Notes under the pieces: model-generated
What the model saw: only the letters and a program-made list of their open reading frames with translations
Told to the model about the DNA's origin: nothing
Databases searched by the model: none
Part shown: in pieces, positions 338-39,300 of the stretch
How the letters are laid out: the number at the start of each line of letters is the position of its first letter
How positions within the stretch are numbered: position 1 is the first letter of the stretch
Program-made: the position numbers and the translations under genes
Source of the DNA: Chiloscyllium plagiosum
Lineage: Eukaryota
Reading direction: 5' to 3'
DNA length: 61,393 nt
Assembly (NCBI RefSeq): GCF_004010195.1
Contig: NC_057756.1
Coordinates: 10,432,911-10,494,303 of the forward strand

Positions 338-361
338 GGGATGAATTACCTCCCGGCTTGA
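338..361 (+). CDS. 24-nt micro-exon (G)DELPPGL
   Basis: ctcttccacag|GGGATGAATTACCTCCCGGCTTGA|gtaagt; TGAC branch-like A at -23. Confidence 0.8.
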   Translation, partial: GMNYLPA

Positions 362-3300: not shown

Positions 3301-6300
3301 CAACCAACCTTGAAAGATAGAGAATGCCTGTCAACCACTCTCCTGCAATGTTAATATTGGTTTTGTTCTCGAGTTTGCATTCTTGCAAAATGTCCAGATG
3401 AGTGCATCTTTTTTCAACAATATTCAGGTTTTGCGTCTACCCAATTACAATTTGCAAATCTCTTTGTTGCTGTGGAGAACCTGAAGCTGTTGATTTTAGG
3501 AAATACTTTAGTCAGAGAATTTACACAAATCAAATGTGAAACACCTCATAGAATTGGCAATGACATATTATTATGGGATATGAGTCCTTCAGAGTAGCCT
3601 CAGCTGGTGAGGGGAATTGAACTCACAATGCTGGCATCCCTCTATGTCGCAAACTAGGCATCTAACAAACTGCGTTGATTTAAAGTGTCAACGTTATTGA
3701 CAGTGCTGGAAATTAAGCCATTACTCCCGTGGACCTGATGTTATACCTGCTTGGAAAACAAAATGTTACTTTCAGCTGTGAGACTCAGAGATATTTTCCA
3801 AACAATGGTTGAGAGATGCATAAGTTGAGGTTGGATCAATAATTGTATTATTTTAATTAATCACAAATAATTAATTATGGATGTTTGAATTGTCGAATAT
3901 GTTAATAAAACTGAGAGCAAATATGTGACTGGTAAAACAAAAGAATGTAAATTAGATTATTAGGGCTCAAGTTATTTATAAAGGAAACACCCGCTTGTAA
4001 TTGATGCTGAACTGACTGTATGAATTGATACACTAGTTCTCTGGAAGTATATATTTCTTTCAATTGAATTGTCAATTTCCGGTGCCAGCAATGTTAACAT
4101 AAATCCATCTCTTCCACAGGAGGGAAAAGACCATCTAGATTGGGTAAATATATTTTGTTAGTTGTTTAGATGTCCTGATTTATGTACTGATCTTGTTTTG
4201 AGCATGATAAGGTAACCACAATCTGTCAAAACATATCCTTTCATTCCATCATTGTAATGTTCAATGATGTTCATTCATGTGTGAAAATATTATCAACTGT
4301 GTTAACATCAGTGAGGAAATAATACAATTATATCCTGCAGTTTGTGCCACTACAAATCTTGTATTTGACTCGACAGCCACCTGATGAGGGAGCAGCGCTT
4401 CGAAAGCTAGTGATTCCAATTAAACCTGTTGGACTATAATCTGGTGTTGTGTGATTTTTAACTTTGTACTTGACTCACAATTGTTGGTTTGGCAAATATT
4501 TTAATATACATTATTTTAATAAAATCATTTGAAACAAATTGCTGACAGTTATATACTTAGAGAATACATTCTCCAGTGGCAGTTTAGAGAGACATTAAAA
4601 ACTGTATGTCCAGTGGTTTAACCATTAAACAGATCTGAATCAAGATTTTAAAAATAGGGAACGTGATGACTTCTCCTGCCTTTTATTGAAGCAGAACAGG
4701 TTTGTATTCCCTGTCACACATTTCTGAACAGGGAACCTTCTCCTCGTTGTCTATCCTCTTAACATAACTGAAGGCATCGCTGACTATTAATAACTACATG
4801 TTGAATAGACTACGTCAGATGTTATTTCAACAACCACTCTCATTGCAACAAGAAACACAAGGGTTTCCTTTTCACAGCCATTAGGATGTGTTTAATGTAG
4901 ACAGAAATGAATTCTTGAAAAATAAATGGAACTGTTGAATGCAATGAGCAAGAATTCAAATGAGAATGATCGATTGTTTTAATCTATCAATATTGTTTGG
5001 TGTATTGAAAATTATTCTGCTGCGCCCTTTGCTCAGATGTTATATGTTAGAACGAAAGCAGAACTGAGAAATATTTACAGATAGACATTAGTTTGAGACC
5101 TTGATATGTAATCCAGAAAATGAATGGAAGGTGAATGTGATGAAGTAACAAGTGTGTCAGTTATGTTGATGAATATAAATTATCACCCATTCTGTCCAGT
5201 ATTGCTGCATGTGTCAGGGCTCTGCATTGATTATGTTAAAATCTCCAATTCCAATTGATCCCTGTCAAGGGTAGTGACACCAATCTATTCATTCCACAGG
5301 AACTGGGAAATTTCCTAGACCCGGTAAGTATTTTATTTCATGACCTGAATTCTGCTCAATTGTGTTACATATGCTTCACTGTAAATTATAATGGCAGTGA
5401 TTCCAAGGGACATTAATGTTCACAATTTCTGATGAAGCCGCTCATCAAATGTGAAGTTTTATGTCACTCCCCTGCCCTGATGTGTCATCATGAACCAGAT
5501 CCCAATCAGGATTGATGACCTGTTAACATGATTACTGTTCTCTCATATTGTCTTCAAACATTGAACTTTTTAGCTCAGCTCAAAAGTGACTGAATAAGTC
5601 CCTTGAGCTCCTTAATTCTCAATTGTCTAACAGAATTAATGATATCTCTGACCCATCATAGCTATTGGCTGACTGCATCAGATATGACTGGTGTTAATTT
5701 AATACTTGCTGTCATTCCTGAATGAATGTCAAGAGTTATCCTTTCAAAGCCCAACATGGAGTGTTTAATATAACCATTAATGAGGGTGATTCTTTTAAAA
5801 GGAACTATTGCATGAAACAAAGTGCAATTTAATTCAGTCGGATCATTTTAATCTGCCAATATTATTTGGTTGTTTAGACACCACATTGGGGGCCATTCAG
5901 TTCCATTGACTGGATAGTTGCATTGTAGTGCAGAGTAATGCTAACAGCGCTGGTTCAATCCCTACCCTGGCTGGGGTCACCATGGAGGTCCCATTGTTTA
6001 ACCTCTCCAGCTGCCTGAGGGATTGTGACCGTACAACACTAGTTAGTTCTCTGTCCCAATCTCTGTCTAATGATAGAGTAGCCCGATGACCCTCTGGGGC
6101 AGTAGTGACTTCACTCCCTTTGAACAGGTGCAGTGAGTTATATAGTAAAAGTGTCTGATACGTATTTGCTGATAGTCTTTGGTTTGAGACCATGATATAC
6201 AATCCAGAAAATGAATGAAAGCTAAATATGATAAAGTAAAAAGTGTATCGGTTCTGATATTGAATAAAATGATCACACATGCAGTCTAGGATTGCTGAAT

Positions 6301-9300
6301 GTGTCAGGGCTCTGCATTGATTCTGTTAAAGTCCGCAAATCCTGCAGGATATGAGCACCAATCTATACATTCCACAGGGGTTCAGAGATCTCCTGTACCT
6401 GATCACTGTTTCAATTCTATGACACCAAATTTGCACAGTTTTGTCATATCACTGTACATTCTAAAGGCAGTAATTCCAAGGGACAGAAATGTTCGCAAAA
6501 CCCCAGCACAATTCAATTATCTTGATCATCCCATAGCTCATTCCCATTCATTTTCTGTGTTAGAAATAGATAAGTGTCTGCTTATTATGTCTTAAATATT
6601 AATGAAATGAATTAATATCGAGTGGGCATATTTGTGGTACCCAAAACTGTCATTCTAAAACATCTATGCATTCAATGAATTCATTTTATGACATCTAAAT
6701 AGATCATTCTGAATTACAATATATGTCGTAAAATGAATCTAATCACTCAAGATTACATTTAATCCCAAGAAGTGACTTAATGTATTGACCTGTCCTGCTC
6801 TGAGGTGACTGTTAACCAGGACACAGTCAATATCTATTGTATAATACAATAGCTATTCATTCACATATGGTAGCTGAACACTAAAAATGTATTAATTGTG
6901 ATGCAGGCTTTAAGGTAGGGAGAGAGATTTTTTACAGGAGCTGATTAATCCTTTTTTTCCTCATTTAAAAGCTTTGGAAACATCCGGTATCCCTATGCAA
7001 TGCTGTCTCCAGGTTTTATTTCATTTGGATCATGTCAATCAATGCAACAATTGTGTTGACATACCTGTCTTTAATTAATGTTTCAATTTCCAATGGACAC
7101 AATGTTAATACAGATCCTCTCTCCCACAAATGCATTCATAACATGCGATTCTTTCGCTTGACAGTGATAATTCCATTCCAATCTCTGAACAAATATCACA
7201 TCAATACACCTTTGCAATATTGATTGTCATTCATTCCTGTGTTTCAACACTATTTACTGTGTACATTTCCTACTGGGAAGGAAGTGATTAAACCAATTAT
7301 ACCATTCTCTTGGTAAGTATCTTAACTCCACCTGGAAAGCAAAAACTGGTCGTTTTGGCAAATTGTTTCGTTCAGAGAATTTCTGTCCCACATTTTTGCA
7401 TAGTTTGTTCAACAACATGAATTTGGAGTGTCACTTTGTGTGGACTGTTTGACTTGAGGGAAAGGTGAAATTGTTCATCAAATTTGAAATGCTATGTTCC
7501 TCTCCTGCCCTGAGGTGTGATCACTAAACAAATCCCAATTAGATTTAAAACATGAGAGATTTAAAATAAAAGCTGAGAGAGGCCAATATCCCATCACCAA
7601 GTTACCCTTTATTTACATGTGCACAGTACATGGGCTCTGACAAGCCAGCTCAGAGCCACTGGCTAGAATTAGGAGAGTCTCTGAATCCCCTGTTTTTTTT
7701 AATATATTAACCCCCACACTACCACCTAAGTGCGGTAGTGCTTATTTTTTCCTCAGCACCCATGGTGTGTGTGTGCAGGTGTGAGACACAGTGAAAGTCA
7801 CAAAGTGCACAAATCTTTATTCAATTTCCACCACCAGGAAGATAGGAAAACACCCGGGTGGCCAGTGACAAACACTGCCCTTCACATCAGAGGGCAATGC
7901 TGTGTGATCAAAACAGTGAAGGGGAGGGGAGGGACTAAATCAAAATAAATCCCCTGTTTATATCTGTCAGTGTGGGTTACCTGATTGAACAGTTTAACGA
8001 GCCCAATCAAGAGTCTCATAGTTAATGAGATCAATTTGGCCTTCTAGCCAACCACTATAGATTGTCTTCAGATATTTACCATCTGTAAGTTGTGTCATAC
8101 ATGACTAAAAATATACCAAAGTGTTGCCTGAGCTCCTTAGGCATCTACCCTCTAACAGAGCTAAATGTATTTCTGGCCCTTAATAGTTATTGGCTGAACA
8201 CATCAAATGTGACTGATGTTAATTTAACAGTGGCCATCATTCTAAAGGATTCAACAAGGATTTTCTGCTCACAGTTAATAGGAAGTGTTAATAAAGACAG
8301 AAACGAGGCTAATTTTTCAAAATGGAACTGTTGAATGCAATGACGGTGGCTCAGTGGTTAGCACTGCTGCCTCACAGCGCCAGGGACGCATGTTCGATTC
8401 CAGCCTCGGGTGACTGTCTGTGTGGAGTTTGCACATTCTCCCCGTGTCTGCGTGGGTTTCCTCCGGGTGCTCCGGTTTCCTCCCACAGTCCAAAGATGTG
8501 CAGGTCAGGTGAATTGACCATGCTAAATTACCCATAGTCTTAAGTGCATTAGTCAGAGGAAATGGGTCTGGGTGGTTTACTCTTCGGAGGGTCGGTGTTG
8601 ACTTGTTGGGCAGAAGGGCCTGTTTACACACAGTTGGGAATCTTATCTAAAGACGGAAAAGTCAATCTATGATGTATCATTTTAATCAGTAAATATCATT
8701 TGACGTATTGGCTATTATGGAGTTCCATTCTTTGAACAGGTATCATATGTTAGAAGAAAAAGAATTGACTGATCAAAATTTACTAGTAGCCTTCAGCTTG
8801 AGACCTTGATATATAATCGGGAAAATCATTGAAGATGAATTTGATGAGGTAACAAGTGTATCAGATACATTGTTGAATTAAGTTATCACATCACACGATA
8901 TTATTGAATGTGCCAGACTCTGCATTAATTCTGTTATAATACCCAAATTCAATTGTTCCCTAAAGAGGATATTAACCCAAACCTGTTCATTCCACAGGAG
9001 CTGGACTATCTCCAGGACCTGGTAATTATTTTATTCATGACCTGATTGTTGCTCAATTATTTGTTTAATGTTTAATTCTAAATTATAATGGCTGTAATTC
9101 TCAGGGACAGAAATGTTCACAAAACCCCAGCACACTCAAATGATGTAGACCATTCCCAGTCCATTGACATCATTTGCATGTGTTAAGAATTATGTAAGTA
9201 ACACTTTATTATATCCTAAATATTAACCAAAATAATTAGCACATTGACACAAATATACAGTATCCAAATTGTAGTTCTATGAATTGAATGAACTAATTTT

Positions 9301-12300: not shown

Positions 12301-15300
12301 TATGCCCGAAACGTCGATTCTCCTGTTCCTTGGATGCTGCCTGACCTGCTGCGCTTTTCCAGCAACACATTTTCAGCTCTGTGGAGGGAAACCAGAGTCA
12401 ACGTTTCTAGTCCAGTGATCCTTCCTCAGAGCTGTTAATATGGTCACTGTTCTCTCTCATTGTCTGAAGACAATTAACATCTGTAGCTTATGTCAGTCAT
12501 GACCAAACGTGTACAGAAGTGTTTCCCGAGCTCCTGAATCATCTATCCTCTAACAGAACTAAAGGTATTTCTGCCACTTAGTAACTATTGGCTGAATATA
12601 TACTTAATTGTTAATTTAACAGTTACCATCATTCCTATATGAACAACACAATTGCTCACAGTTAATAGGAAGTATTAATAAATTAGATTAGATTCTCTAC
12701 AGTGTGGAAACAGGCCCTCTAGCCCCACAGACCCTCTGAAGAGTAACCCACCCACATCCATTTGCCTCTGACTAACACTATGGGCAAATTAGCACGGCCA
12801 ATCCACCCTAACCTGCACACTGCAGGACAATTTCCCTTGGCCAACTCACCTGACCTGCACATCTTTGGGAGGAAACCGGAGCACCCGGAGGAAACCCATG
12901 CAGACACGGGGAGAATGCGCAAATTCCACACAGACAGTCACCCAAGGCTGGATTGGACCTGGGTCACTGGCGCTGTGAGCCAGCAGTGCTAACCACTGAG
13001 CCACCATGCCACCCCAAAGACAGAAATGGGACCGATTCTTCAAAGTGGACTGTTGAATAAAATGAGGGAGAACTCAATCGACTTTGGACCATTTTAATCA
13101 CTAAACATGGGTTGATATATTGTCTATAATGGTCCTCCTTCTTTTGATCAGGTATCATAGGTTAGAAGGGAAAAAAAACTGAGAAATATTTGCAGAAAGC
13201 TTGAGATCTTGATATGTATTCCAGAAAAGGAATGAAAGATAAAGTGGTGAAGTAACAAGTGTCACTATCAAGTTATTAAGAATCAGTTATGTCGTTAGAT
13301 TAAATTGTGACACAGACAAACCAATGCTAAATATGCTAGGCTCTGCATTGAATCTGTTCAAACCTCCAACTGCAACTGATCCCCCTCCAGGATATTAACA
13401 CCAATCTGTTTATTCCACAGGGGTTGGGAAATCTCCTGGACTGGGTAATTATTTCAATTCATGAGCTTAAAATTTTTCAATATTTTCATACATACTCCAT
13501 TGTAAATAGTAACAGTTGTAACTCTGAGGGACTGAAGTGTTCTCAATTTCCCTAGGACAATTCAATGCTCTACATCATCCCACAACTTGCTAACATCCTT
13601 TGTGTGTGCAAAACATGTAGAAGCATCTGATTATTATGTCCAAAATAATTGATGCAGTGTGGGCAGTCAAATTTGATTTAAATTTCTGAAATCCAAAATT
13701 CTTACTGCAGAAAATCTGTTCATTCAATGAATTCATTTTATTATGTTTAAATGGATCATCCAGCATTACCACCTCGATGGTCTGTTCACAAAAACTTATA
13801 TTTAATCACAAAATGTAACTTTGAATATAACTGATTCTGTCTTGCCCTGAGGTGTGATTGTTAACCAGACCACAGTCAAGATCTATTGTATAACACAATT
13901 ATTGTTCATTCATGTGGTCGATAAAGACTAGAAATGCATTAATCATGATGTCAGCCATTAGGCAGAAAAAAGATTTCTTACAGGAGCCAAATAATCTGCA
14001 TTTTCTTATTTTGATTAATAGTTATTCACCGAGCAATTCAAAACAACATGCAATTCAAAAGCATTGGAAACGTCAGATATCCCTATGAAAGACTGTGTCT
14101 GAGTTTTCCTTCATTCAGAATGCATCAATCAATGCACTAATTGTGTTGAAATGTCCATTTTTGATTAAAACTTAAATTTCCAATTGAGATAGTTAACACA
14201 GCAGGTCAGGCAGCATCTGAGAAGCAGGAAAATCGACGTTTCGGGCAAAAGCCTTTCGTCAAGAATGGTTCCTGATGAGCTTTTGCCCGAAACATCGATT
14301 CCCCTGCTCCTCGGTTGCTGCCTGACCTGGTGTGCTTTTCCAGCACCACTCTGATCTTGACTCTAATCTCCAGCATCTGCAGTCCTCACTTTCGCCTCAT
14401 TTTGTGTGTTGGCTGTTATGGTGCTCCTCCATTTGAACAATAAATTAGACTGAGAAATATTTGCACTCTCCCCCTGGTGATAATACCCCTGCTGGGTAAA
14501 TATATTCACTCAATTTCTTTTTGATATTTGATTCTTAGTTTAACCTTCATAATGTTGTCCCAATTCGTGTGCACATATCACATCAGTACATCATTCCTAT
14601 GCTGATTACTGTTCATTCCGACATTCCAACATCATTAACTATTTTCTATTGCCAACATTGGGAAGGAAACAATTACACCCTTTTTTTTGACAATAATCTA
14701 AGCATAAATGCCTTTCCCATTTAAGCAATTCAGAGATTTGGTTGGTTCATATTTGCATGGATCATTCTCCAGTGTGAATAATGCGTGTCACTCTGAGTGG
14801 AGGCTTTGTAATAAAGAAAAGATTAAACTACTTATCAAATTTGAAATTATATGTCACTCCCGTGCCCTGAGGTGCAATCATTAAACAGATCCCAATTATA
14901 ATTGATGACCGGTTAATATGATTACTGTTCCCTCTCATTGTCTTCAGATGCTTAATACCTGTAGGTTGTGTCAGACATGACTAAACTTGGACAGATGCTC
15001 CTTAATCATCTCTTCTCTAAAGGTATCTCTGGCTATTAATTACTATTGGCTGTACACATCAGTACAACTGATGTAAATTTAACGGTGACAATCATTTCTA
15101 TATGAACAACAAGGATTCATTCCAATTGATCCCTGTACAGGATAGTAACACCAATCTATTCAATCCACAGGAGCTGGGAAAATTCCTGGACCTGGTAATT
15201 ATTTTAATTCATGATGTTAATTTTGTTCAATTTTGTCACATATGCTTCATCACAAATTGTAAAAGTGGTAATTCTGAGGGACAGAATTATTCATAAAATC

Positions 15301-18300
15301 TTCAGCATATTTTAGTTATGTAGATCATACCTCAGGTGATTTGTATCTTTTTTATGTCTAAGAAATATGTAAGTATCAGGTTAAATACTAAGAAAACAAA
15401 TTAATGTAGACTGGACTGCCAAAGTTGACACAAATCTATGGAATTCAATTGATTCCTTTGTAGATAGTAACATTAATCTGTTCAATCCACAGGAAGTCAG
15501 AAATTTCCTGCACCTAGTCATTATTTGAATTCATGCCCTTAAATTTCCTCAATTTTGTCACCTGTGCTTCATCATAAATTGTACTGATAGTAATTGTGAG
15601 GGTCATAAATATTCACAAAACCATAGCACATTTCAATTATGCAGGTCATCTGACAGCTCATTCATATCCTTTATGTGTGTAAGAAATATATATGTATCAG
15701 GTTACTTTATCGTAAATATTAATGAAAATAAATGATACAGCCTGGATATTCAACACTGAACTAAATTTATGGAATCCAAAATTCCCATTCTCGAAAATAT
15801 ATTCATCAATGAACTTGGTTTATTCGGTTTTAACAGATTGTCCAGCTGTACCACATGCGTTCTGAATGAATCTAATCACAAGAGATTATGTTTGATCCCA
15901 AAGAGTGACTTAGAATATAAATATTTCTGTTCTGTCCTGAGGTGTGATTGTTAACTATACCATAATCAACACCTGTTGTATAACACAATGATTATTCATT
16001 CGTATGGGGATAAACATCACAATTCATAATCTACACCTCTAGACAGAGATATAATATTTATAGGAGCTGTTGAATCTACGTTAACCCCTAAGTTAAATTC
16101 ATTGTATTTTAGCCTGACATTCAAATGTGTTGGAAACATCAGAAATATTCTAAGACTATAAGACACAGGACATTACTGAGGCCACTTTTAGGAAACTGCA
16201 CACAGTTCAGGTCACCATGTTATAGGAAGAATGTCATTAAATTGGAAAGGGTGCAGAAAAGATTAACTAGGAAGTTACTGAAAATGAAGGGTTTGAGTTA
16301 TAAGGAGAGGCGGGACAGGCTGGGACCTTTATCTCTTGAAACTCCAGGACTCTGTGACATAGGAGCAGAATTGGGACATTTGGCCCAACTAGTCTACTCT
16401 CCCATTGAATGCTTGCTGATATTTCTCTCAACATATTCTCCTGCCCTTTCACCGGAACCTTTGATCCCCTTAGTAAGCAAGAACTGTTGTGATTAAAATC
16501 AGGTGGATCTTAGTGTCCCAAGATCCTTGATTGGGTTGGTTAACCTGCGCCAATCAGGGAGCCCTGGCTGACAGACATAAACAGGGGATTCTGACTCTCC
16601 TCGCTTCAGGGACTGACTCTGAGCTGGCTGGCTCCAGCAAGTGTACTGTTCACAAGTAAATGAAGGATGGCATGGTGACAGGATATCAGCCTCTGTGCAG
16701 TTAATTCAAGAACCCATCCATCTCAGTCTTAAATACACTCAATGACTTAGCTGCCACAGCCTTCTGCGAATTACACAGATTCCCCACCCTCCGGCTGAAG
16801 AAACTCCTCCTCAACTCAGTTCTAAAGGGTCAGTCTGAGGCTGTGCCTTCTGTTCCTCATCTCTCCTACTGCATGAGAGGGACAGGATTTAAAAGGGACC
16901 TGAGGGGCAACTTTTACATGCTGAGAGTGGTGCGTGTAGTGAATGAGCTAATGGAGGGAGTGCTGGAGGCTGTTACAATTACTGCATTTCAAAGACATTT
17001 GGACAGGTACAGGATTAAGGAAAAGTTTAGAGGAATTTGGGCCAAATGTGGACAAATGAGACTAGTTCAGATATGGAAACCTGGTCAGCAAGGATGAGGT
17101 GGACCGAAGGGCCTGTTCCCATGCTGCTTGCTTCTGTGACTCCCTCCTGATTTGTTAAAATCTCCAATTCAACCGAGAGTATTAACACCAATCTGTTCAC
17201 TCCACAGGAGTTGGGAAGGTTCCTGGAACAGGTATTTATTTTAATTTATAATCTGAATATTGTTTTTCAATTGTGTCATCTGTGCTTCATTCTAATTTGG
17301 AACAGCAGTAACTCTGAGGGACAGAAAAGTCTCAGCTTCCCCAGGACAATTCAATGATCCAGACCATCCCACAGCTCCTTCACATCCTTTTCATGTGGAT
17401 GAAATATGTAAACATCAGATTATTATGTCCTAAATATTAATGAAAATGATTCATACAGCGAGTGCAGGCAAAGTTGTAGCAAATTTCTGGAATCCAAAAT
17501 TCCCAATCTAGAAAATCTGCTCATTCAATGAATTCACTTTATTATGTTTTATCAGTTTACCCAGAATTACCCGTGCTCTCTGAATTAATCTGATCACAAA
17601 AGATTCAATTTAATTACAAAGTGTGACTTAAAATTTAACTCTTTCTGACCTGCCCTGAGGTGGGTTGCTAACTGGACATCATGTTGGGGATAAACACTGG
17701 AAATAGATAAATCCTGATCTGGGCTTTTCACAAAGATAGAATTTTTACAGGAACTGATTAATCTGCACTTTCCCAATTTGATTAACAGTAGTTAACCCGA
17801 AAATTCAAACATGACAGAAATATCTGTTGTCCATATGAAATATTGTCTTTTGGCTTTTCTACATTCTGATATGTCAATTATTGCAGTGAAACGTCTATTA
17901 ATAAATTAATCTTTCAACTTCCAGTGGTGACAATGTTAAACACGTATCTATCTCTCCAACAGGAGTGATAATACCTCCCGCCTTGGGTAAATATATTATC
18001 TCATTTTCTCCTTTCATGATAATGTGATACTCAATTTGAGTATGATAATGTCGTTCCAATTTGTGAGCATATTTCACATCAGTATATCATTACAAGACTG
18101 ATTGCCATTCATTCCAACGTTCAAACACTGCTAACTGTGTACATCTCCTATTGTCAGCTTTGGTTAGGAAACAATTACATTATTTTTAGGCAACAATTTT
18201 GGTTTCAACTTGCCTTTCTTTTATCAGAAATGTTGAAACTGTTCACTTTGGTAAATCCCTTAATTCAGTGAATTGTGGGTCACAGCTTTGTACGGAACAT

Positions 18301-24300: not shown

Positions 24301-27300
24301 CAATCTATTCTTTCCACAAGAGCTGGGAAATTTCCTGGACCTGGTGTTTATTTTAATTCATGATGTTAATTTTGCTCATTATTGTCACACATACTTCATC
24401 ACAGATTGTAACAACAGTAATTCCAAGGGACAGAAAGATTCACAAAATCCCCAGCACATTTCAGTTATATCGATCATGCCTCAGTTCATTTGTATCTTTT
24501 TATGTCTAAGAAATATATAGGTATCAGGTAAAATATTAATGAAACTAATTAATGTAGAATGGACAGCCAAAGCTGACACAAATCTATGGAATTCAATTGA
24601 TTTCTTTGTGGATCGTAACATCAATCTGTTCTTTCCACAGGAGGTCAGAAATTTCCTGGACCTGGCAATTTTTAAATTCATGTCCTGAATTTTCCTCAGT
24701 TTTGTCACCTGTACTTCGTCACAAATTATAATGACAGTAAATGTGAGGGACAAAAATATTCAAAAAAAAACATCGCACGTTTCAATTGTATATGACTTGG
24801 AGGAGCCAGTGTTGGACTGGCGTGGACAAGGTTAAAAATCACACAACACCAGGTTATAGTCCAACAGGTTTATTTGGAAGGACCAGCGTTTGTAGCCACC
24901 AGGATACATGAACATTAACTAGCCACAAAAGGACATGACCCTTTCTCACTAGTATCCTCACATACGGATGAGGAAGGACACCACTTCGACTGGGACAACA
25001 CATCCATCCTCGGACAAGCCAAACAAAGACACACACGAGAATTCCTAGAAGCATGGCATTCCAACTGGAACTCAACAAACTCATTGAGTTAGACCCCATC
25101 TACCACCCCCTGAGAAAAGGAACAGGAAGTGACTTCACCACAGGAAATAACATCACCACAGGAAATGACACTACCAACCTAAAGAAACCCTAAAATATAA
25201 ATAGAAAGCAGGAATTTTCAGCATTGCTTTGCCTGAGGTCCACTGAAGATGTTACCTAGTAGGGTAACAAAACATCTGGAAATGAAACTTCCAGCTCAGT
25301 GAGCAAATCTCCATCTAAAACCTCCTACAAACCTTCTGAAACCTCAGATCCATTTTAATTTTTTCCCTCTCTAAGCGCTTCGAAAGCTAATACTTCCAAA
25401 TAAACCTGTTGGACTATAACCTGATGTCTGATTTTTAATTTCAGTTATATAGGACATCTGACAGCTCATTAACATACATTACGTGTATACAAAATATGTA
25501 TGTATCAGGTTACTTTATCTTAAGTAGTAATGAAAATAATTGAGCAGCTTGGATAGTCAAAAAACAACAAAATTTCTGGAATCCAAAATTCCCATCCTAG
25601 AAAATATATTCATCAACGAACTTGGTTTATTATGTTTTAACAGATTTTCCAGCTATACCACATGCTTCTAAATGAATCTAATCACAAAAGATTAAAGTTG
25701 ATCCCAAAGAGTGACTTGCAATATAAATGTTTCTGTTCTGTTCTGAGGTGTGATGTTTAACCATACCACAGTCAACTTCAATTGTATAATACTATAATTG
25801 TTCATTCGTATGGGAGATAAACACCACAATTCATACTCTACCCTTTAAGGCAGAGAAAGAGTTTTCAGGGACATGATTAATCTGCATTAACTCCATTTCA
25901 TTAATTATATTTTACCGTGAAATTCAAATGTTTTGGAAACATCAGGTAGACCCTAAGATGATAAGACACAGGACACTGATGAGGTCACGTTTAGGATATT
26001 GCACCCAGTTCTGGTCACCACATTATGTTATTAAATTGGAAAGGGTGCAGAAAAGATGTACAGGGAAGTTACTGGAACTGAAGGGTTTGAGTTATAAGGA
26101 GAGGATGGATAAGCAGGGACTCTTTTCCCCGAAACATCGAAGGTTGAGGGGTGATCTTATAGAGGTTTACAAAATGACGAGAGGCATTGGTAACGTGAAC
26201 AGCAAAGGTCTCTTTCTCAGTGTAGGGGAGCTCAGAACGAGAGGACATAGGTTCAAGGGGAGAGGGAAAAAATTAAAATGGATCTGAGGGATAACCTTTT
26301 CACACAGAGTGTGGTGCATATATGGAATGAACAGCCAGAGAAAGTGGTAGAGGTGGGTTCACTTCTAACATTTAAAGGACCTTTGGAAATATATGAATAA
26401 GGAATGTTTAGAGGCATACGGGCCAACTGCAGGCAATGGAACCAGTTTAATTTGGGAAACTTGGTCGGCGGGGACAGGATGGACCAAAGGGTCTGTTTCT
26501 GTGCTGGAAGACTCTACGACTGTGAGCAGAATTTGGCCATTTGGCCCAGCTATCTGCTCTCCCATTGGATCCTTGCTGATATATTTCTCAAACTATTCTC
26601 TTGCCTTGCCACCATAAACTTTGATCCGCGTTGTAATCAGGAACTGTAGTGATTGGAACCAGGTGGATCTTAGTGACCTGAGATCCTTGATTGGGTTTGT
26701 TAACCTTGACCAATCAGGGAACCTTGGATTTCAGATATAAACAGGGGATTCTGGATCTCCTCACTTCAGGGACTGACTCTGAGCTGGCTGGCCCCAGCCA
26801 GTGTACTGTTCACAAGTAAATAAAGGATGGCTTGGTGACGGGATACCAGCCTCTGTGCAGTTATTTCAAGAACCTATCCATCTCTGTCTTAAATATACTC
26901 AATGACTTGGACCCGATAGACTTCTGTGACAGTAAGCGCCACAGAGTCACCATGTTTTGGCTGAAGAGGTTCCTCTTCATCTCAGTTCTAAAGGATCATC
27001 CCTTCAATCTGAGGCTGTGCCTTCTGGTCCTGGCGTCTCCTACTGCATGAGAGAGGAAAGATTTAAAAGAGACCTGAGGGGCAACTTTTACATGCTGAGG
27101 GAGGGGCGTGTATGGAATGAGCTGGTGGAGAAATTTCAAACACATTTGCACAGGTTCAGGCATAGGAAGGGTTTAGAAGAATTTGGGCCAAATGTGGACA
27201 AATGAGACTAGTTCAGATATGGAAATCTGGTCAGCATGGGCTGAAGGGCCTATTCCTGTTCTGCTTGCCTCCGTGAATCCCTCCTGATTTTGCTAAATTC

Positions 27301-30300
27301 TCCAATTCCAACCAAGGGTATTAACATCAATTTGTTCACTCCACAGGGATTGGGAAGGTTCCTGGAACAGGTATTTATTTTAATTTATAATCTTAATTTT
27401 TGTCAATTGTGTCATCTATGCTTCATTCTAATTTGGAACAGCAGTAACTCTGAGGGACAGAAAAGTCTCAGTTTCCCCAGGACGATTCAATGATCCAGAC
27501 CATCCCACAGCTCCTTCACATCCTTTTCATGTGGATGAAATATGTAAACATCAGATTATTATGTCCTAAATATTAATGAAAATGATTCATACATTTCTGG
27601 AATCCAAAATTCCCAATCTAGAAGATCTGCTCATTCAATGAATTCACTTTATTATGTTTCATCAGTTTACCCAGAATTACCCGGGCTCTCTGAATTAATC
27701 TGATCACAAAAGATTCAATTTAATTACAAAGTGTGACTTAAAATTTAACTCTTTCTGACCTGCCCTGAGGTGGGCTGCTAACAGGACAGCAGTCAGGATC
27801 TACTGTATCACACACAATTATTGCTCATTCCTGTCAGGGATAAACACTGGAAACAGTTAAATCCTGATCAGAGCTTTTCGGCAGAGATAGAATTTTTACA
27901 GGGACTGATTAATCTGCGCTTTCCCAATTTGATTAACAGTAATTAACCCTAAAATTCAAACACAATGAAAATATCTGTTATCCATATGAAATGCTGTCTT
28001 TGGGTTTTCCTTCATTCTGCTATGTCAATCAATTGCAGTGAAATGTCTATTTTTCAATTGATCTTTCAATTTCCAGTGGAGACAATGTTAACACCAATCC
28101 ATCTCTCCCACAGGAGTGATAATACCTCCCCCCTTGGGTAAATATATCCCCTCATTTTCTTCATTCATGAAATGTGATACTCAGTTTTAGTGTGATAATG
28201 TTGTTGCAATCTGTGAGCATGTATCACATCATTTTATTATTGCACCACTGATTGCCATTCATTCCTATGTTCCTACACTATTAAGATTAGATTCCTACAC
28301 TATTAACAGTGGTTAGCACTGTTGCCTCACAGCGCCAGAGACCCGGGTTCAATTCCCGCCTCAGGCGACTGACTGTGTGGAGTTTGCACATTCTCCCCGT
28401 GTCTGCGTGGGTTTCCTCCGGGTGCTCCGGTTTCCTCCCACAGTCCAAAGATGTGNNNNNNNNNNNNNNNNNNNNNNNNTAATCTAATCTAATCTAATCT
28501 AATCTAATCTACACTATTAACTATGTACATCTCCTGTTGTCAACTTTGGTGAGTAAGCAATTGCATTTTTTTGCAAGCATTTTGGTTTCAGTGTCTTTCT
28601 TCCATCGGAAATGCTGAAATTCTTCACTTTGGCAATCCCTGAATTCACAGCATTACACGTCACAAATCTGTATGGTTCATTCCCCAGTGTGAACTATGAA
28701 AGCCACTCTGTGTGGAGGCACTGATAGGAAGGAAAGGTGAAAGTGGTTATCAAATTCTAAATTATATGTTATTCCCCTGCCCTGAGGTGTGATTATTACC
28801 CAGAACCCATTTAGGATTGCTGATGTTTTAATATGATTACTGTTCTCTGTCGTTGTCTTCAGACATTTAATATCATGTCATACATGACTAAACATGTACA
28901 GAAGTATCCTCTGAGCTCCTTAATCATCTCTCCTCTCAAGGTATCTCTGGCCCTTAATTACTATTGGCTGTACACATCAGTACAACCGATGCTAATTTAA
29001 CAGTGACAATCATTTCTATATGAACAACAAGGCTTCCCGGACACGGTTAATAGGAAGTGTTTAATGTAGGCAGAAATGAGATTAATTCTACAAGATGGAG
29101 CTGTTAAATGCAATGAGGGAAAAGTCAATCTGTGTTGGCTCATTTTAATTGGTAAATATCGATTGGTTTATTGGCTGTAATAGTACTCCTCCATATGATC
29201 AGATGTAATAAGTTAGAAGGAAATAATTGACTGGGCAGTATTTTGCAGACAGCTTTTAGTTCGAGACCTCCATATATCTCCCAGAAAATAAATGGAAGAG
29301 ATGAAGTAACAAGTCTATCAGTTATGTTGTTGAATTAAATTATCACCCATTCTGTCCAGTATTGCTGCATGTGTCAGGGCTCTGCAGGATAGTAACATCA
29401 ATCTATTCAATCAGCAGGAGCTGGGAAATTTCCTGGACCTGGTAATTATCTTAATTCATGATGCGAATTTTGCTCAGTATTGTCACATATACTTCATCAC
29501 AAATTGTAAAAGCAGTAATTCCGAGGGACAGAAAGATTCACAAAATCTCCAGCATATTTTAGTTATGTAGATCATGCCTCAGTTCATTTGTACCTTTTTA
29601 TGTCTAAGAAATATGCAAGTATCAGGTTAAATACTAATAAGCCAAATTAATGTTGAGTGGACAGCAAACGTTGACACAAATCTGTGGAATCCAATTGATT
29701 TCTTTGTGGACAGTAACATCAATCTGTTCTTTCCACAGGAGGTCAGAAATTTCCTGCATCCGGTAATTATTTTAATTCATATCCTTAATTTTCCTCAATG
29801 TGGTCACCTATCTTCATCACAAATTGTAATGGCAGTAAATCTGAGAGACAAAAATATTTCAGTTCTACAGATGTCCTGATATATAGATTTTATAATTCAT
29901 GTCCTTAACTTTCCTCAATTTTGTCACCTGTGCTTCATCACAAATTGTAATGATAGTAAATGTGAGGGACAAAAATATTCACAAAACCATAACACATTTC
30001 AATTGTACAGGTCATCCGATAGCTCATCCACATCCTTTATATGTGTGTATGAAATATGTATATCAGGTTACTTTATCTTAAATATTAATGAAAATAAATG
30101 ATAGAGTGTGGATTGTCAAAGATGAACCAAATTTTTAGAATCCAAAATTCCCATTCTAGAAAATATATTCGTCAATGAACTCAGTTTATTCGGTTTTAAC
30201 AGATTGTCCATCTATCTCACATGCACTCTGAATGAATCTAATCACAAAAGATTAAGCTTGATCCCAAAGAGTGACTTAGAATATAAATGTTTCTGCAAAG

Positions 30301-33300: not shown

Positions 33301-36300
33301 AGGGGCAACTTTTACATGCTAAGGGAGGTGCGTGTATGGAATGAGTCATAGAGTCATAGAGATGTACTGCATGGAAACAGATCCTTCAGTCCAACTTGCT
33401 GATCAGATATTCCAACCCAATCTAGTCCTACCAGCCAACACCCGGCCCATATCCATCCAAACCCTTCCCATTCATATACCCATCCAGATGCCTTTTAAAT
33501 GCTATAAATGTACCAGTCTCCACCACGTCCTCTGGCAGCTCATTCCATACACACACCATCCTCTGTGTGAAAAAGTTCCCCTTAGGTCTCTTTTATATCT
33601 TTCCCCTCTCACCCTAAACCTATGCCCTCTAGTTCTGGACTCCCCACCCCAGGGAAAAGACCTTGTCTATTTATCGTATCCATGCCCCTCATGATTTTAT
33701 AAACCTCTATAAGGTCACCCCTCAGCCTCCGACGCTCCAGGAAAAACAGCCCGACGGAGGAAGTGGTGGAGGCTGGTATAATTACCACATTTCAAAGACA
33801 TTTGGACAGGTACAGGAATAGGAAGAGTTTAGAGGGATTTGGGTCAAATGCGGGCAAATGGGACTACTTCAGATTAGGAAACCCGGCCTGCATGGAGGAG
33901 TTGGGCCGAAGGGCCTGTTCCTGTTCTGCTTGCCTCTGTGACTCCCTGCTGATTTTGTTAAAATCTCCAATTCCAACCGAGGGTATTAACACCAATCTGT
34001 TCACTCCACAGGGGCTGGGAAGGTTCCTGGAACAGGTATTTATTTTAAATCTTACTCTTAATTTTTGTCAATTGTGTCATCTGTGCTTCATTCTAATTTG
34101 GAACAGCAGTAACTCTGAGGGACAGAAAAGTCTCAGATTCCCCAGGACAATTCAATGATCCAGACCATCCCACAGCTCCTTCACATCCTTTTCATGTGGA
34201 TGAAATATGTAAACATCAGATTATTATGTCCTAAATATTAAAGAAAGTAATTCATACAGCGAGTGCAGGCTAAGTTGTAGCAAATTTCTGGAATCCAAAA
34301 TTTCCAATCTAGAAAATCTGCTCATTTAATGAATTCACTTTATTATGTTTCAAAGTTTACCCAGAATTACCCTGCGCTTTCTGAATTAATCTGATCACAA
34401 AAGATTCAATTTAGTTACAAAGTGTGACTTAAAGTTTAGTTCTTTCTGACCTGCCCTGAGGTGGGTTGTTAACCGGACAGCAGTCAGGATCTACTGTATC
34501 ACACAATAATTGTTCATTCATATGGGGGATACAGTATGCGCTGGAAATAGATGAATCCTGATTAGGGCTTTTAGGCAGAGATAGAATTTTTACAGGAGCT
34601 GATTAATTTGCACATTCCCGGTTTGAAAAACAGTAGTCAACCCGAAAATTCAAACATGATAGAAATATCTGTTATCCATATGAAATGCTGTCTTTGGGGT
34701 TTCCTTCATTCTGATATGTCAATTAATTGCAGTGAAATGCTTATTTTTAAACTGATCTTTCAATTTCCAGTGGAGACAATGTTAAAACCAATCCATCTCT
34801 TCCACAGGAATGATAATACCTCCCCCCTTGGGTAAATATATCCCCTCATTTTCTTCATTCTCAGCTTGAGTGTGATGTCGTTCCAGTCTGTGAGCATGTA
34901 TCACATCAGTAGATCATTACAACACTGATTGCTATTCATTCCCATGTTCCTACACTATTGACTGTGTACATCGCCTATTGTCAACTTTGGTGAGTAAGCA
35001 ATTGAATTTTCTTTAGCAACAATTTTGGTTTCAACGTGTCTTTCTTCCACCAGAAGTGCTGAAATTGTTCACTTTAGTAAATCCCTTATTTCAGAGAATT
35101 GCGGGACACAGATTTTCACAGTTCATTCATCAGTGCGAATTATGAGAGTCACTCTGTGTGGAGGCACTGGTAGGAAGGAAAGGTGGGAGTTCTTATCAAA
35201 TTATACTCCCCTGCCTTGAGGTGCGATCATTAACCAGATCCCAGTCGGCATTGCTGATCTGCTCACACAATGACAGTTCTTTCTCATTGTCTTCAAGCAT
35301 TTAACATTTTACGTCACGTCGAATATGTCTGAATGTGTATAAAAGTGCCCTTGAGCTCAGTAGTCATCTACCCTTTATCAATGGTACCCCGGCCCTTAAA
35401 ACTATTGACTGGAAACATGAAGGCTGATGTTAATTTAACATCCATTATCATTCCTGTATGAATATAAAGGATGACCTTCTCATGGCCGTTAGGAAGTGTC
35501 AATGCAGACTTAATAATTCTTCTGAAAGGAACTTTTAAATGAAATGAGGAAAAGTTCAATCTAGTTGGGTCATTTTAACCTGTCAATATAGTTTGGCGTT
35601 TGGGTGGGTTTCCTCCACTGACTTGATGGTTGCTTTGTCATACAGAATGCTGCCAGCAGCACGGTTTCAAATCCTACCCTGGCTGAAATGACCATCAACG
35701 TCCCACCTTTTGAACCTCTCCAAGTGACTGAGGCATTGTGACATCGCCCCCCCCCCACTTCCTGGTCGTTTCTCTGCCTCTCCAATGAAAGAGCAGCCCT
35801 CTGGGACTTTACTCACTTTGAACAGGCGTGGTATGTCAGAAAGAAAAATTGACTGATGAATATTTGCTGAAAGTTTTAGGGTTTGAGACCTTGATGTATA
35901 ATCCAGATGACGAATAAATGATGAATGAGGTGAAGCAGTAAGTGTATCAACTAGATGAAAACAATGGCTGCAGATGCTGGAAACCAGAGTCAAGATTAGA
36001 GTGGTGCTGGAAAAGCACAGCAGTTCAGGCAGCATCCGAGGAGAAGGAAAATCAACATTTTTGGTAAAAGCCCTTCATCAGGGCTACCTTCCTGATAAAG
36101 GGCTTTTGCCTGAAATGTCGATTTTACTGGTCCTCGGATATCTGCCTGAACTGCTGTGCTTTTCCACCATCACTCTAATCTAGTAAGTGTATCAGTGTTA
36201 TGTTGTTAAATTAAGTTATTACACATTGTAGACCAGTAGTGCTGAATTTTTCAGGCTGCACTGATTCTGTTAAAATCTCCAATTCTAACTGATCTCTCTC

Positions 36301-39300
36301 TCGAGGATACTAATCTATTCATTCCACAGAAGTTCAGAAGTCTCCTGGCCATGGTAATGATTAATTTGGCTCAATTTTGTCACCTATGCCTGCATTCTAA
36401 ATTGCGAAGGCAGTAATTCTGAGGGTGTTTACAATTCCCCAGTACAGTTCTGTTATGTAGCTCATCCCACAGCCCATTCACATCTGTTTCACTGGCTAGA
36501 GACATCTAAAGAACAGCCTGTTCTGTTCTCAACATTAAAGAGAAGGAGTGAACATTAAACGGGCAGTCAATGTTAGCATAAATTTCTTGAGTCCAAATTC
36601 TTGCAAATCCATTCATTCAATTAATTCACTTTACTGTGTTTTAACAGATCATCCTGAATGGTCACACACACTCTGAGTTAATCTGTTTACAAATAATAAA
36701 CTTTCATCCCAAAGAGTTACTTCACACGTCAATGTTTCTGATCTGCCCTGACGTGTGATTATTGACCAGCCTACGGTCAAACTCTACTGGACGACACAAC
36801 AATTGTTCATTCAGTTGGGAGATAAACACTAGAAATATATGACTCAAGGATCCAGCCTCCAGGCAGAGAAAGATTTTTTTTGCGTTCACTCAAGGGATGT
36901 AGGTGTCACTGGCTGGGTCCAGTATTTATCGCCCCATCTCTAGTTGCCCCCTTTGGGAAGGTGGGAGTGAGCTGCCTTCTTGACCCGCTGCAGTCCATGT
37001 GCTGTAGGGTAGACCCACAATGTCCCTGAGGGAGGGAATCCCAGGATTCTGACTCAGGAAGGAATGGCCGATATATTTCCAAGTCAGGATGCAGAGGGGA
37101 AATTGCAGAGGGTGGTGTTCCCATGTATCTGTTGCCCCTTGTCCTTCTAGATGGAAGTAGCCGTGGGTTTGGGAGGTGCTGCCTAAGGATCTTTAGTGAG
37201 TTTCTGCAGTGCATCTTGTAGCTGTTACTGAGCGTCAGTGGGGGGAGGGAGGGGATGGTACACACTGCTGTTACTGAGCGTCAGTGGGGGAGGGAGAGGA
37301 TGTTTGTGGATGTGGGACCAATCAAGTGGGGACTGCTTTATCCTGGATGGTGTCGAGCATCTTGAATGTTGGAGCTGTGCCCATCCAGGGGTAAGTGGGG
37401 AGTATTCCCTCACCCTCCTGACTCGTGCCTTGTAGACAAATGTGAAGTAACTTTGCCTGATGTAGGGGCAGTGCTCTGACAGCCTGTGATTTCAAATAGA
37501 CCTGATAACCTGGTGTCTATCTGACCTTGTCCACGGCAGTGCAACACCGGCACCTCCACATAATGATAAATTTGCTTGTTACACAGCAGCAGTTTAACCT
37601 GCCACTCCTGGGAAATGATCCTATCTCCTTTTAATTTTAAATAATTCATTCTAGGTTCTGGGGCTGGAGGGTTTGAGCTATAAGGAGAGGCTGGATAGGC
37701 TGGGAATTCTTTTCCCTGGAGCGTAGGATGCTGAAGGGTGACCTTATAGAAGTTTATAAAATCATGAGGGGCATGGACAGGGTGAATAACAAAAATCCTT
37801 TCCCCTATGGTAGAGGGTTTCAAAACTAGAAGGCATAGCATTAAGGTTGGGGGGGGGAAGATTTAAAAGGCACCTAAGGGGCAACTCTTTCACACCGAGG
37901 GTGGAATGAGCTGCCAGAGGAAGTGGTGGAGGCCGGTACAATGACAACATTTGAAAGGCATCTGGATGGGTTCATGAATAGGAAGGGTTTGGAGGGATAT
38001 GGGCCAATTGTTGGCAAATGGGGCTACATTAATTTTGAATATCTGGATGACTTGGGTCCAGCACCACTAATCCAGAATCTGTTTCTCTCCTATATAACTC
38101 TGACTCTATAAAAATGTTTGACTTTGTTGTCATTGGCGGCAGTGATGTTTTGTAATGAGACTGTTCAGGGATGTTAGCACTCACCTCTGGAGCAGTTGGG
38201 ATTTGAACGCAGACCTCCCAGCTCAGTGGTAGGGACACTATTACTGCAGTACAAAAATCCTTTTCCCTTCTGTTAGATGTGAGATAGGGAAACTGAATTA
38301 GCATGGGTGTGAATAAATCATGTGAATTTTGATTTTACTAGAAATGTATTGCAAATAGTAAGCTGTGCAGAGCTGAATGTATCTATCGCGGTACTAATTG
38401 TTGTAATATTAATTTCCAAAGTATTATTTTGACATTGCTAACCCAATTCTTTCTACTCCTCAGGAGGTGGAAAAGATACTGCTTATGGTACATATTTTAA
38501 TTCAGAAACTTCTTTCAATGTTACTTCATGGGGAAATTCAGGAAACCCGTGCACAGTCTGAGCAACAAAATACTGTACCTGAATAAACCCGATCGAATTC
38601 TTATGGAATGGAGGTTGGCCATTTGTTCCATCGAAATGACCCTCTAAAGAGCCTTCCTGGTTACCTGCTGCTCCTGTGTGCTAGCCTTCTGTGATTTGTG
38701 CGCAAGTACCCCCAAGTGATTTAGAGTTTCAGCTTTCTCAGTTTAACTCATACTGGGTGCATTTGTTTACCCTTCCAAAATGAAGTTGATTTTTTTTATT
38801 TTTATTGAAAATTTAACATATTTTTACAAGTTTACAAATAAAAAAGACAAGTATAAACATTAATATACAATTAAATCTTAAATAAATAATAACCAAAATC
38901 TATCAAACAGAAAAAAAGAGATACCAAGAGAAAAAAAACAAAACTCAACTAACTACTGATCTAATCTACAACTAACCAGAGTGTAGAATTAAGTCTCTTA
39001 CATAGTTCAGGGAAACAGAAAAACAACAGATAACACAGAAATTGGGTAGTGAGATAAATGCTCAGAATTGTGTTAACATCAAATCATAATAAATCCCGTA
39101 TTCGTGCGGGATTCCTCTCCCAAGGGGCCCCGGGCCAGCCAGGTTCACCATCTCAATTAAATAAAAGCCCTTGTTAGGATGGCCAAAAAATCTGTATTTG
39201 TGTAATTCAAGAAGGGCTGCCATATTTATGGAATAATTCGGTCTTTTGGTGCACCATATTTGTAAGGAAGTCAAGGGGAATACATTCCATAATTAATCTT

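What the first reader, a model, noticed from the sequence alone, without database searches (positions are those of the whole stretch)
5300..36353. Encoded repeat resembles a cross-linkable elastomeric or structural protein
Seen: consensus G-x-G/Q-K-hydrophobic-P-G-x, with Lys at position 4 in 16 of 25 exons. These alternate with hydrophobic Lys-free GVIIPPPL exons once per cassette. No Cys or Trp. Established: tropoelastin uses symmetric phase-1 exons alternating hydrophobic G/V/P domains with Lys cross-link domains (lysyl oxidase), and human tropoelastin contains GKVPG and RFPG. Against ELN: Lys is mostly single rather than paired KxxK, exon length is fixed, and no GRKRK C-terminus is visible. 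Inference: either a lineage-specific expanded region of an elastin-like gene or a novel matrix protein (for example skin or egg case). QK motifs could be transglutaminase substrates.
Basis: inference. Interest (0 to 1): 0.7.

Follow-up and report, generated by a model that had tools for sequence, protein, structure and literature searches.

The report
Shark elastin look-alike from micro-exons
A shark-type genome carries a long row of tiny 24-base exon-like units that would spell a glycine/proline/lysine repeat protein; it is not the elastin gene, which lies on another chromosome, and it likely belongs to a family of secreted repeat proteins that would harden or cross-link an extracellular material in a tissue not yet identified.

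Summary
The window has 26 duplicated 24-nt phase-1 exon copies on + (338-38487), 22 with AG/GT. No stop occurs in 351 coding-frame codons, and exons vary half as much as flanking intron. It is not elastin: a typical tropoelastin gene (KAAK exons, Cys/basic tail) lies on C28 beside a LIMK motif and a septin. This array is on C47, has no paired lysines, and its neighbours are nectin-, Ly6/uPAR-, fish-egg-lectin- and DCAF11-like genes. Its splice-acceptor sequence is shared with micro-exon genes on C48 that open with a signal-peptide exon and encode Gly/Tyr/His/Lys repeats. Best reading: the repeat body of a Tyr-poor, Pro/Lys-rich member of that family, likely secreted, disordered and cross-linked through lysine; egg capsule is only a candidate tissue. 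The gene is split over mis-ordered scaffolds. Its first and last exons were not found, and the RNA lay gave no test of splicing. The scan noted other members of this family before on other DNA; ten literature searches found no description.

The parts
338..361 (+). 24-nt phase-1 exon copy, Lys-free divergent type
   Evidence: AG/GT
1057..1080 (+). 24-nt exon copy, Gly-rich with two Lys
   Evidence: AG/GT
2894..2917 (+). 24-nt exon copy, Lys-free hydrophobic type
   Evidence: AG/GT
4120..4143 (+). 24-nt exon copy, Lys/Arg type
   Evidence: AG/GT
5300..5323 (+). 24-nt exon copy, Lys type
   Evidence: AG/GT
6378..6401 (+). 24-nt copy without a GT donor (likely dead)
   Evidence: donor reads AT
8998..9021 (+). 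24-nt exon copy, Lys-free variant of the Lys type
   Evidence: AG/GT
13421..13444 (+). 24-nt exon copy, Lys type
   Evidence: AG/GT
15171..15194 (+). cassette 1, first Lys exon
   Evidence: AG/GT
15493..15516 (+). cassette 1, Q-K exon (weak GT donor)
17208..17231 (+). cassette 1, second Lys exon
   Evidence: AG/GT
17963..17986 (+). cassette 1, hydrophobic Lys-free exon
   Evidence: AG/GT
19499..19522 (+). cassette 2, first Lys exon
   Evidence: AG/GT
19821..19844 (+). cassette 2, Q-K copy whose donor is deleted (likely dead)
22485..22508 (+). cassette 2, second Lys exon
   Evidence: AG/GT
23217..23240 (+). cassette 2, hydrophobic Lys-free exon
   Evidence: AG/GT
24320..24343 (+). cassette 3, first Lys copy with acceptor CAA (likely skipped)
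   Evidence: same change in contig C58916
24641..24664 (+). cassette 3, Q-K exon with GC donor (use uncertain)
   Evidence: GT in the C58916 copy
27347..27370 (+). cassette 3, second Lys exon
   Evidence: AG/GT
28114..28137 (+). cassette 3, hydrophobic Lys-free exon
   Evidence: AG/GT
29418..29441 (+). cassette 4, first Lys exon
   Evidence: AG/GT
29739..29762 (+). cassette 4, Q-K exon
   Evidence: AG/GT
34012..34035 (+). cassette 4, second Lys exon
   Evidence: AG/GT
34808..34831 (+). cassette 4, hydrophobic Lys-free exon
   Evidence: AG/GT
36330..36353 (+). 24-nt exon copy, divergent Q-K type
   Evidence: AG/GT
38464..38487 (+). 24-nt exon copy, Lys/Tyr type; first member of a further cassette type that continues on unplaced contigs
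38793..43387 (-). LINE-1-like insertion in the intron; its other end and target-site duplication open contig C101156, which carries three more exons
48597..48620 (-). 24-nt exon copy on the next scaffold (after a 500-N join), likely the same gene in flipped orientation
49259..49282 (-). 24-nt exon copy on the flipped scaffold
57377..57400 (+). 24-nt exon copy in a gap-bounded contig oriented against its scaffold neighbours
5473..36770 (+). 17 copies of a short intronic motif shared by the cassettes (3 more at 48199 -, 50030 -, 61183 +); 0 copies in 360 kb of control DNA
   Evidence: only modestly above the intron mean in an exon-anchored alignment

Best explanation
The array is a row of duplicated 24-base exon-like units, distinct from the elastin gene, that is predicted to be spliced in one frame into the repeat body of a likely secreted, disordered Gly/Pro-rich protein whose single lysines would be cross-linked into an extracellular structural material. 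Shown: symmetric phase-1 units with mostly intact splice sites, an open frame, conservation above intron level, and a shared acceptor sequence with signal-peptide-bearing genes on C48. Inferred: (1) repeated duplication of intron-plus-exon cassettes built the gene, and because every unit is a multiple of three, dead or skipped units leave the frame intact; (2) it has a signal-peptide exon like its paralogues; (3) with 47% Gly+Pro, no Cys and a net positive charge it stays unfolded and flexible; (4) its unpaired Lys residues most likely act as the amine partner for oxidised Tyr of the Tyr/His-rich paralogues (quinone tanning), rather than forming elastin-type desmosine links. Odds by step: coding gene 0.9, secreted 0.8, structural matrix role 0.6, egg capsule as the tissue about 0.3.
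For: Across 51 copies gathered from the window, flanking scaffolds and unplaced contigs, 45 have AG/GT, and stops number 0 of 351 codons in the phase-1 frame against 11 of 402 and 12 of 351 in the other frames (copies are related). With one copy per type, 0 of 20 have a stop, while 30% of 210 random AG-24-GT stretches do (P about 7e-4). In the four cassettes 12 of 96 exon columns vary against 329 of 1306 intron columns (Fisher p 0.004). The acceptor pattern has 53 genome matches against 3 for the reversed control, 10 on C47, 25 on C48, 14 on unplaced contigs and 4 elsewhere. The 28 nt before the AG are 62-64% identical to two C48 genes and 52% to a third, against 31% to true ELN exons and 28% shuffled. 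Three C48 genes show a signal-peptide exon ending in phase 1, followed by long micro-exon arrays rich in Gly/Tyr with Lys or His; 7 of 9 promoter matches carry such a first exon. Composition of the 22 canonical exons: G 27%, P 19%, K 9%; 21 basic against 4 acidic residues.
Against: No first or last exon of this gene was found. RNA laid on 15000-20400 covered interspersed repeats only, with no joint between exons in 4 runs, one of which laid nothing; this is no test either way. 4 of 26 window copies have lost canonical sites, and a 20-nt copy lies on an upstream scaffold. Third codon positions vary least (1 of 28, against 7 and 2 of 28; pooled pS 0.017 below pN 0.075), which is not the usual sign of protein-level selection. 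Kinship with the C48 genes rests on about 28 nt of acceptor and a short intron motif, and the C48 exons were listed with a profile trained on this gene, which inflates the identity. The protein has only 1 Tyr and 1 His in the window's 175 residues, so tanning needs a partner that is not shown to be co-expressed.
Confidence: 0.6

Rival explanations
1. It is a secreted cationic surface or defence protein (mucus, skin or egg jelly) whose micro-exons are skipped in varying sets to make many isoforms, as in schistosome micro-exon genes, or a repeat anchor for a small inhibitor domain, as in trappins.
For: Symmetric exons with weak donors allow frame-preserving skipping. Net charge is strongly positive. 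Neighbours are Ly6/uPAR-, nectin- and fish-egg-lectin-like genes. One C48 paralogue has, downstream on the same scaffold, a Cys exon resembling part of a WAP domain, with a stop before a donor.
Against: The WAP match is below Pfam's cut-off (19 against 20.8 bits), has five Cys, is unique in the genome, and its link even to that paralogue is unproven. No such exon was found in the 461 kb around the window. The exons are near-identical repeats rather than diverse ones. Neighbourhood alone says little in this assembly.
Confidence: 0.2
2. The array is a decaying or silent duplicate: once coding, now a pseudogene whose ends are lost.
For: 4 of 26 window copies and 6 of 51 overall are non-canonical. 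No terminal exons were found. No RNA joint was seen. A LINE-1-like element sits inside one cassette.
Against: Cassettes about 20% diverged still keep exons twice as conserved as introns, with no exon stop in 351 codons. Loss of single symmetric exons does not break the frame. The assembly is gapped at both ends of the array, which can explain the missing ends.
Confidence: 0.12
3. It is a lineage-specific expanded region or second copy of the elastin gene.
For: Phase-1 symmetric exons, with hydrophobic Gly/Val/Pro units alternating with Lys units; replicated short exons are reported for ray elastin (PMC12733013, passages).
Against: A tropoelastin gene with KAAK exons and a Cys/basic end lies at C28:35.19-35.29 Mb, 68 kb from a LIMK motif and about 200 kb from a septin. 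The paper reports a single eln in all non-teleost genomes examined. The array has 0 KxxK and 5% Ala, and its acceptors are no closer to ELN's (31%) than to shuffled DNA (28%).
Confidence: 0.02

Closest known systems
Tropoelastin (ELN), including shark and ray eln (PMC12733013, passages read)
   Same: Many short exons, alternating hydrophobic and Lys-bearing domains, growth by exon replication, Gly/Pro/Val-rich. Phase-1 symmetry was seen in this genome's own ELN.
   Different: Different chromosome and neighbours; single Lys instead of KA/KP pairs; 24-nt units instead of mostly 36-nt and longer; little Ala; no Cys/basic end found; unrelated acceptor sequence.
Gly/Tyr/His/Lys micro-exon genes on C48 of the same genome (found here; also in earlier scan notes; no paper found)
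   Same: Shared acceptor consensus and intron motif, phase-1 micro-exons of 12-36 nt, alternation of a Lys exon with a second exon type in the C48:8.0 Mb gene.
   Different: The window gene is Pro-rich and nearly Tyr/His-free (C48 genes 15-25% Tyr), lies on C47, and its first exon is too divergent or is missing from the assembly.
Schistosoma micro-exon genes, MEG (PMC10526429, search listing and start of abstract only)
   Same: Secreted proteins encoded by very short exons among long introns.
   Different: Unrelated lineage; no sequence link was tested; here the exons are tandem near-copies of one unit.
Trappins/elafin (PMC2831891, passages read)
   Same: Secreted, Lys/Gln-bearing short repeats used as cross-linking anchors; a WAP-like exon lies beside one paralogue.
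   Different: Trappins encode repeats and WAP in one exon of a three-exon gene and are reported as eutherian-specific; the window gene has 2% Gln and no WAP exon nearby.
SCPP genes, including elasmobranch scpp (PMC9122587, passages read)
   Same: Secreted low-complexity proteins grown by small-exon duplication; Tyr-rich parts.
   Different: SCPP introns are mostly phase 0 and the elasmobranch protein is acidic and next to sparc-L; here all units are phase 1 and basic.

Membership tests
Tropoelastin (ELN) | Synteny with limk1 and septin4/5 | tested here: not met
   LIMK motif and septin flank a different gene on C28; window neighbours are nectin-, Ly6/uPAR-, fish-egg-lectin- and DCAF11-like. 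The LIMK motif was recalled, not taken from a call.
Tropoelastin (ELN) | Paired lysines in KA or KP cross-link domains | tested here: not met
   0 KxxK and 1 KxxxK in 175 residues
Tropoelastin (ELN) | Cys pair with basic C-terminal end | tested here: inconclusive
   None in the window, but this gene's last exon was not found; the genome's ELN has it
Tropoelastin (ELN) | Alternating hydrophobic and Lys exons in phase 1 | tested here: met
   Four cassettes
Tropoelastin (ELN) | Coacervation and lysyl-oxidase cross-linking | not testable with these tools
   needs recombinant protein
Shark micro-exon secreted repeat family (C48 genes) | Shared acceptor consensus before phase-1 micro-exons | tested here: met
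   ascertainment bias noted
Shark micro-exon secreted repeat family (C48 genes) | Signal-peptide first exon ending in phase 1 | tested here: inconclusive
   Present in paralogues; not found for this gene. The three nearby signal exons belong to Ly6/uPAR-like and lectin genes.
Shark micro-exon secreted repeat family (C48 genes) | Tyr/His-rich repeats | tested here: not met
   1 Tyr, 1 His in 175 residues; so a compositional variant
Trappin/WFDC | C-terminal WAP domain and KGQDPV-type repeats in one exon | tested here: not met
   No WAP-type Cys motif in 461 kb around the window; repeats lie in separate exons
SCPP | Phase-0 introns, acidic or P/Q-rich product, linkage to sparc-L | tested here: not met
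   Phase 1 throughout, basic, 2% Gln; linkage to sparc-L was not searched
Schistosoma MEG | Isoform diversity by exon skipping | not testable with these tools
   No RNA covered the exons

The most novel reading that the evidence does not exclude
Sharks evolved a second, independent elastin-like polymer. A family of secreted micro-exon genes diversified into Tyr/His-rich hardeners (C48) and this Pro/Lys-rich elastomer with alternating hydrophobic and cross-link exons. Together they form the long-unsequenced non-collagen matrix of the egg capsule or tendrils, tuned by adding, losing or skipping 24-nt modules.
Probability: 0.25. Interest if true: 0.8.

Novelty: new variant of a known kind. Interest (0 to 1): 0.55.

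Why it matters
If expressed, this is a vertebrate structural-protein gene that ORF-based annotation cannot see, and a case of elastin-like design arising outside the elastin gene. With its Tyr/His-rich paralogues it offers concrete candidate sequences for a cross-linked shark material, such as the egg capsule, fin-ray fibres or skin. That makes the composition of those materials testable by one tissue RNA panel and one proteomics run. It is also a clear example of protein growth and pruning by frame-neutral cassette duplication.

Tried and rejected
Expression. No RNA holder was listed for the stretch. The lay on 15000-20400 (runs X1, X2, X9, X10) showed depth only on interspersed repeats, no exon-to-exon joint, a trace of 0.13-0.18 depth in X9 at 17172-17533, and nothing laid in X10; 24-nt exons are also hard to lay. 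This is no evidence for or against expression.

Signal exons rejected: 13 kb before the window and about 122 kb before it (both Ly6/uPAR-like genes), and 62 kb after the window end (fish-egg lectin). Searches with paralogue first exons found none on C47.

Elastin patterns. A CGRKRK pattern gave 7 chance matches against 4 controls and missed the real ELN, which ends in a slightly different basic tail, so it was an insensitive test. A KAAK DNA pattern gave 0 matches. The 200 kb around the C28 septin held no ELN; it lay further up.

Other. The rest of contig C101156 beyond 3.7 kb showed no further exons of this type (output partly cut). Rfam found only a weak tRNA-like match, so the intron motif is not a known RNA family. 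DNA searches from 57377 and from the exon beyond the window end found no further contigs. A generic strict splice-site scan recovered only a few known exons and was uninformative.

Not done: the spliced product was not searched against protein databases or folded, so annotated homologues in other sharks remain unchecked.

Literature: 10 searches listed no paper on this family. The library lacks most subscription journals, and bioRxiv supplements are closed.
Full report
Setting. The window is G000:C47:10432911-10494303 in a 3.56-Gb genome of 101,977 contigs. I read it as a shark from its SINE content (recalled) and from its elastin gene; no call names the species. The region is gapped, with 500-N joins just before the window, at 43388-43887 and 15 kb after the window end.

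The observation. A profile of acceptor, exon and donor finds 26 copies of a 24-nt unit on + between 338 and 38487, one at 57377 on +, and two on - at 49282 and 48620. Shuffled windows never scored above -16.6, against 11-113 for the copies. Four cassettes of four exons each (two Lys exons, one Q-K exon, one hydrophobic exon) fill 15-35 kb and are 78-83% identical. At the neutral rate quoted in PMC9122587 (passage) that is of the order of 100 million years, a rough inference. 22 of 26 copies have AG/GT; the exceptions are 6378, 19821, 24320 and 24641.

Is it coding? Over 51 copies from all pieces, the phase-1 frame has 0 stops in 351 codons, and the other frames have 11 of 402 and 12 of 351. 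These copies are related and some are probably alleles. With one copy per type, 0 of 20 have a stop, against 30% of 210 random AG-24-GT stretches. Exon columns vary in 12 of 96 cases and flanking intron columns in 329 of 1306 (p 0.004). Against a simple reading: third codon positions vary least (1 of 28), and pooled pS (0.017) is below pN (0.075). The constraint may therefore act partly on the splicing signal of such short exons; the numbers are small. RNA gave no test.

Extent. The gene is scattered by the assembly. A scaffold 135-152 kb before the window carries, reversed, cassettes 82-96% identical to the first part of the array. A LINE-1-like insertion starts at 38793; its other end and the target-site duplication open contig C101156, which resumes with three exons. 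The scaffold after 43888 carries four more exons in mixed orientation between gaps. Six small contigs hold further copies or alleles. I estimate 35-45 usable exons, about 280-360 residues, if all pieces are one gene; that is inferred, and the order of the pieces is not settled. No first or last exon was found.

Not elastin. PMC12733013 (passages and one supplement search) defines fish eln by KA/KP lysine pairs, a Cys-containing end and synteny with limk1 and septin4/5, and reports one eln in non-teleost genomes. Here a LIMK motif (recalled) lies at C28:35,358,505 and a septin at C28:35.495-35.506 Mb. At 35.19-35.29 Mb stands a gene with KAAK exons, Val/Gly/Pro exons, a KPPK exon and a Cys-pair basic end. 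None of 62 septin matches lies on C47. The window's neighbours are a nectin-like gene 227 kb before the window, Ly6/uPAR-like genes 6-13 kb and about 132 kb before it (E 4e-4 and 0.015, below Pfam's cut-off), a fish-egg lectin about 64 kb after its end and DCAF11 about 82 kb after it. The product of the 22 canonical exons has G 27%, P 19%, K 9%, A 5%, no KxxK, no Cys or Trp, and GRAVY -0.18.

What it belongs to. A short intron motif shared by the cassettes led to C48 (43 matches, control 0, many of them in an unrelated 65-nt tandem repeat). The same profile then found phase-1 micro-exon arrays at C48:4.28-4.42 Mb, 4.58 Mb, 2.88 Mb and 8.00-8.05 Mb. The acceptor pattern has 53 genome matches against 3 controls: 10 on C47, 25 on C48, 14 on unplaced contigs, 4 elsewhere. 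The 28 nt before the AG are 62-64% identical between the window and two C48 genes and 52% for a third, 31% to ELN exons, and 28% after shuffling. The C48 exons were picked with a window-trained profile, so these values are upper bounds, and blastn finds no longer intron homology. Three C48 genes show a TATA-type promoter, a signal-peptide exon ending in phase 1 and then a long array; 7 of 9 promoter matches have such an exon. Their repeats are Gly 30-47% and Tyr 15-25%, with Lys up to 24% or His up to 15%. The C48:8.0 Mb gene alternates a Lys exon with a His exon, as the window gene alternates Lys and hydrophobic exons. I found these genes before looking up earlier scan notes, which describe the same kind of gene on other DNA of this genome, in another shark-like genome and in a skate. 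Those notes are unchecked and are not counted as support; look-ups by sequence and by relatives returned nothing.

How it most likely works. Shown: architecture, frame, conservation, composition and family link at the acceptor. Inferred: the gene grew by duplicating intron-plus-exon cassettes, and units of 18 or 24 nt in phase 1 can be gained, lost or skipped without a frameshift, which explains dead copies inside a conserved array. By analogy with its paralogues it is secreted. High Gly plus Pro favours a disordered, elastomeric chain over beta-sheet (established knowledge, recalled). A Lys about every 8-16 residues, never paired, suits cross-linking to another molecule more than elastin's desmosine geometry. 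The Tyr/His-rich paralogues are the natural partners in quinone tanning. Gly/Tyr-rich tanned proteins in skate egg capsule are recalled from older work and were not found in the library; PMC8894161 (passages) says only that the oviducal baffle zone secretes a collagenous capsule, and PMC9999432 (passages) had nothing on shark egg cases. The tissue is therefore open. Transglutaminase self-cross-linking is less likely given 2% Gln.

Rivals. A variable cationic surface or defence protein (0.2) draws on skippable exons, the neighbourhood and a WAP-like exon beside one paralogue (Pfam E 0.0017, 19 bits, below cut-off; unique in the genome). Trappins themselves differ in gene structure and are reported as eutherian-specific (PMC2831891, passages). 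A pseudogene (0.12) cannot be excluded without RNA. Elastin (0.02) fails synteny and lysine pairing. SCPP genes are mainly phase 0. Amphibian AEDC genes also amplify phase-1 exons (PMC13487633, passages) but lie at the ADIRF locus, between sncg and glud1 in frogs; no link was tested.

Verdict. A real feature: the repeat body of an apparently undescribed micro-exon gene that works like elastin in design but is not a member of that family, and most likely a Pro/Lys-rich variant of a shark family of secreted repeat proteins. Ten searches of the held library listed no description; automatic annotations in other sharks were not checked. Interest 0.55.

Noticed in passing
L021:3854-3904 and 4423-4473: A 51-nt inverted repeat (96%) containing the shared intron motif brackets the micro-exon just beyond the window end; it could loop the exon out or be a local duplication or assembly artefact.
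   Followed up: partly
window 60131-60182 and 60546-60597: A 52-nt inverted repeat, 96% complementary.
   Followed up: no
window 60818-60829 (+): A possible 12-nt phase-1 exon with a long pyrimidine tract and a GT donor in the same gap-bounded contig as 57377 (read).
   Followed up: no
window 59444-59508 (+): Weak tRNA-like Rfam match (35 bits), perhaps a tRNA pseudogene or SINE head.
   Followed up: no
window 15171-34831: Third codon positions of the cassette exons are the least variable (1 of 28), hinting at nucleotide-level splicing constraint.
   Followed up: partly
L122:9199-9300 (G000:C48:4344199): A single exon with five Cys resembling the second half of a WAP domain, with a stop before a strong donor, 3.6 kb after the last Lys/Tyr micro-exon of a C48 gene.
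   Followed up: partly
L167-L173 (G000:C48:7.999-8.048 Mb, -): A signal-peptide gene with about 20 alternating 24-nt Lys/Tyr and 27-nt His/Tyr exons.
   Followed up: partly
L116-L125, L100 (G000:C48:4.28-4.42 Mb): Facing micro-exon genes with near-identical promoters and signal exons but different repeats (Lys/Tyr/Asp; Tyr/His/Pro; Ser/Tyr/Thr with a Pro/Val/Lys/Tyr exon).
   Followed up: partly
L002:7011-7059 to L001:3827 (+); L013-L014 (-); L009: A cluster of multi-domain Ly6/uPAR-like genes with signal exons; the nearest ends in a hydrophobic tail.
   Followed up: partly
L027:1540-5580 (+): Fish-egg lectin (tectonin) gene with TATA box and signal exon.
   Followed up: partly
L079-L089 (G000:C28:35.19-35.29 Mb): The genome's tropoelastin gene; its basic tail differs slightly from the mammalian motif, and its first exons were not fetched.
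   Followed up: partly
L038 (about 172-176 kb after the window end): Broken retrovirus-like gag/pol/integrase fragments on the minus strand, seen in an ORF listing; observed only.
   Followed up: no
G000:C48:4.348-4.361 Mb, C100447, C34363: A 65-nt-period tandem repeat in the introns of the Tyr/His gene matches the window's intron motif with 2 mismatches.
   Followed up: no
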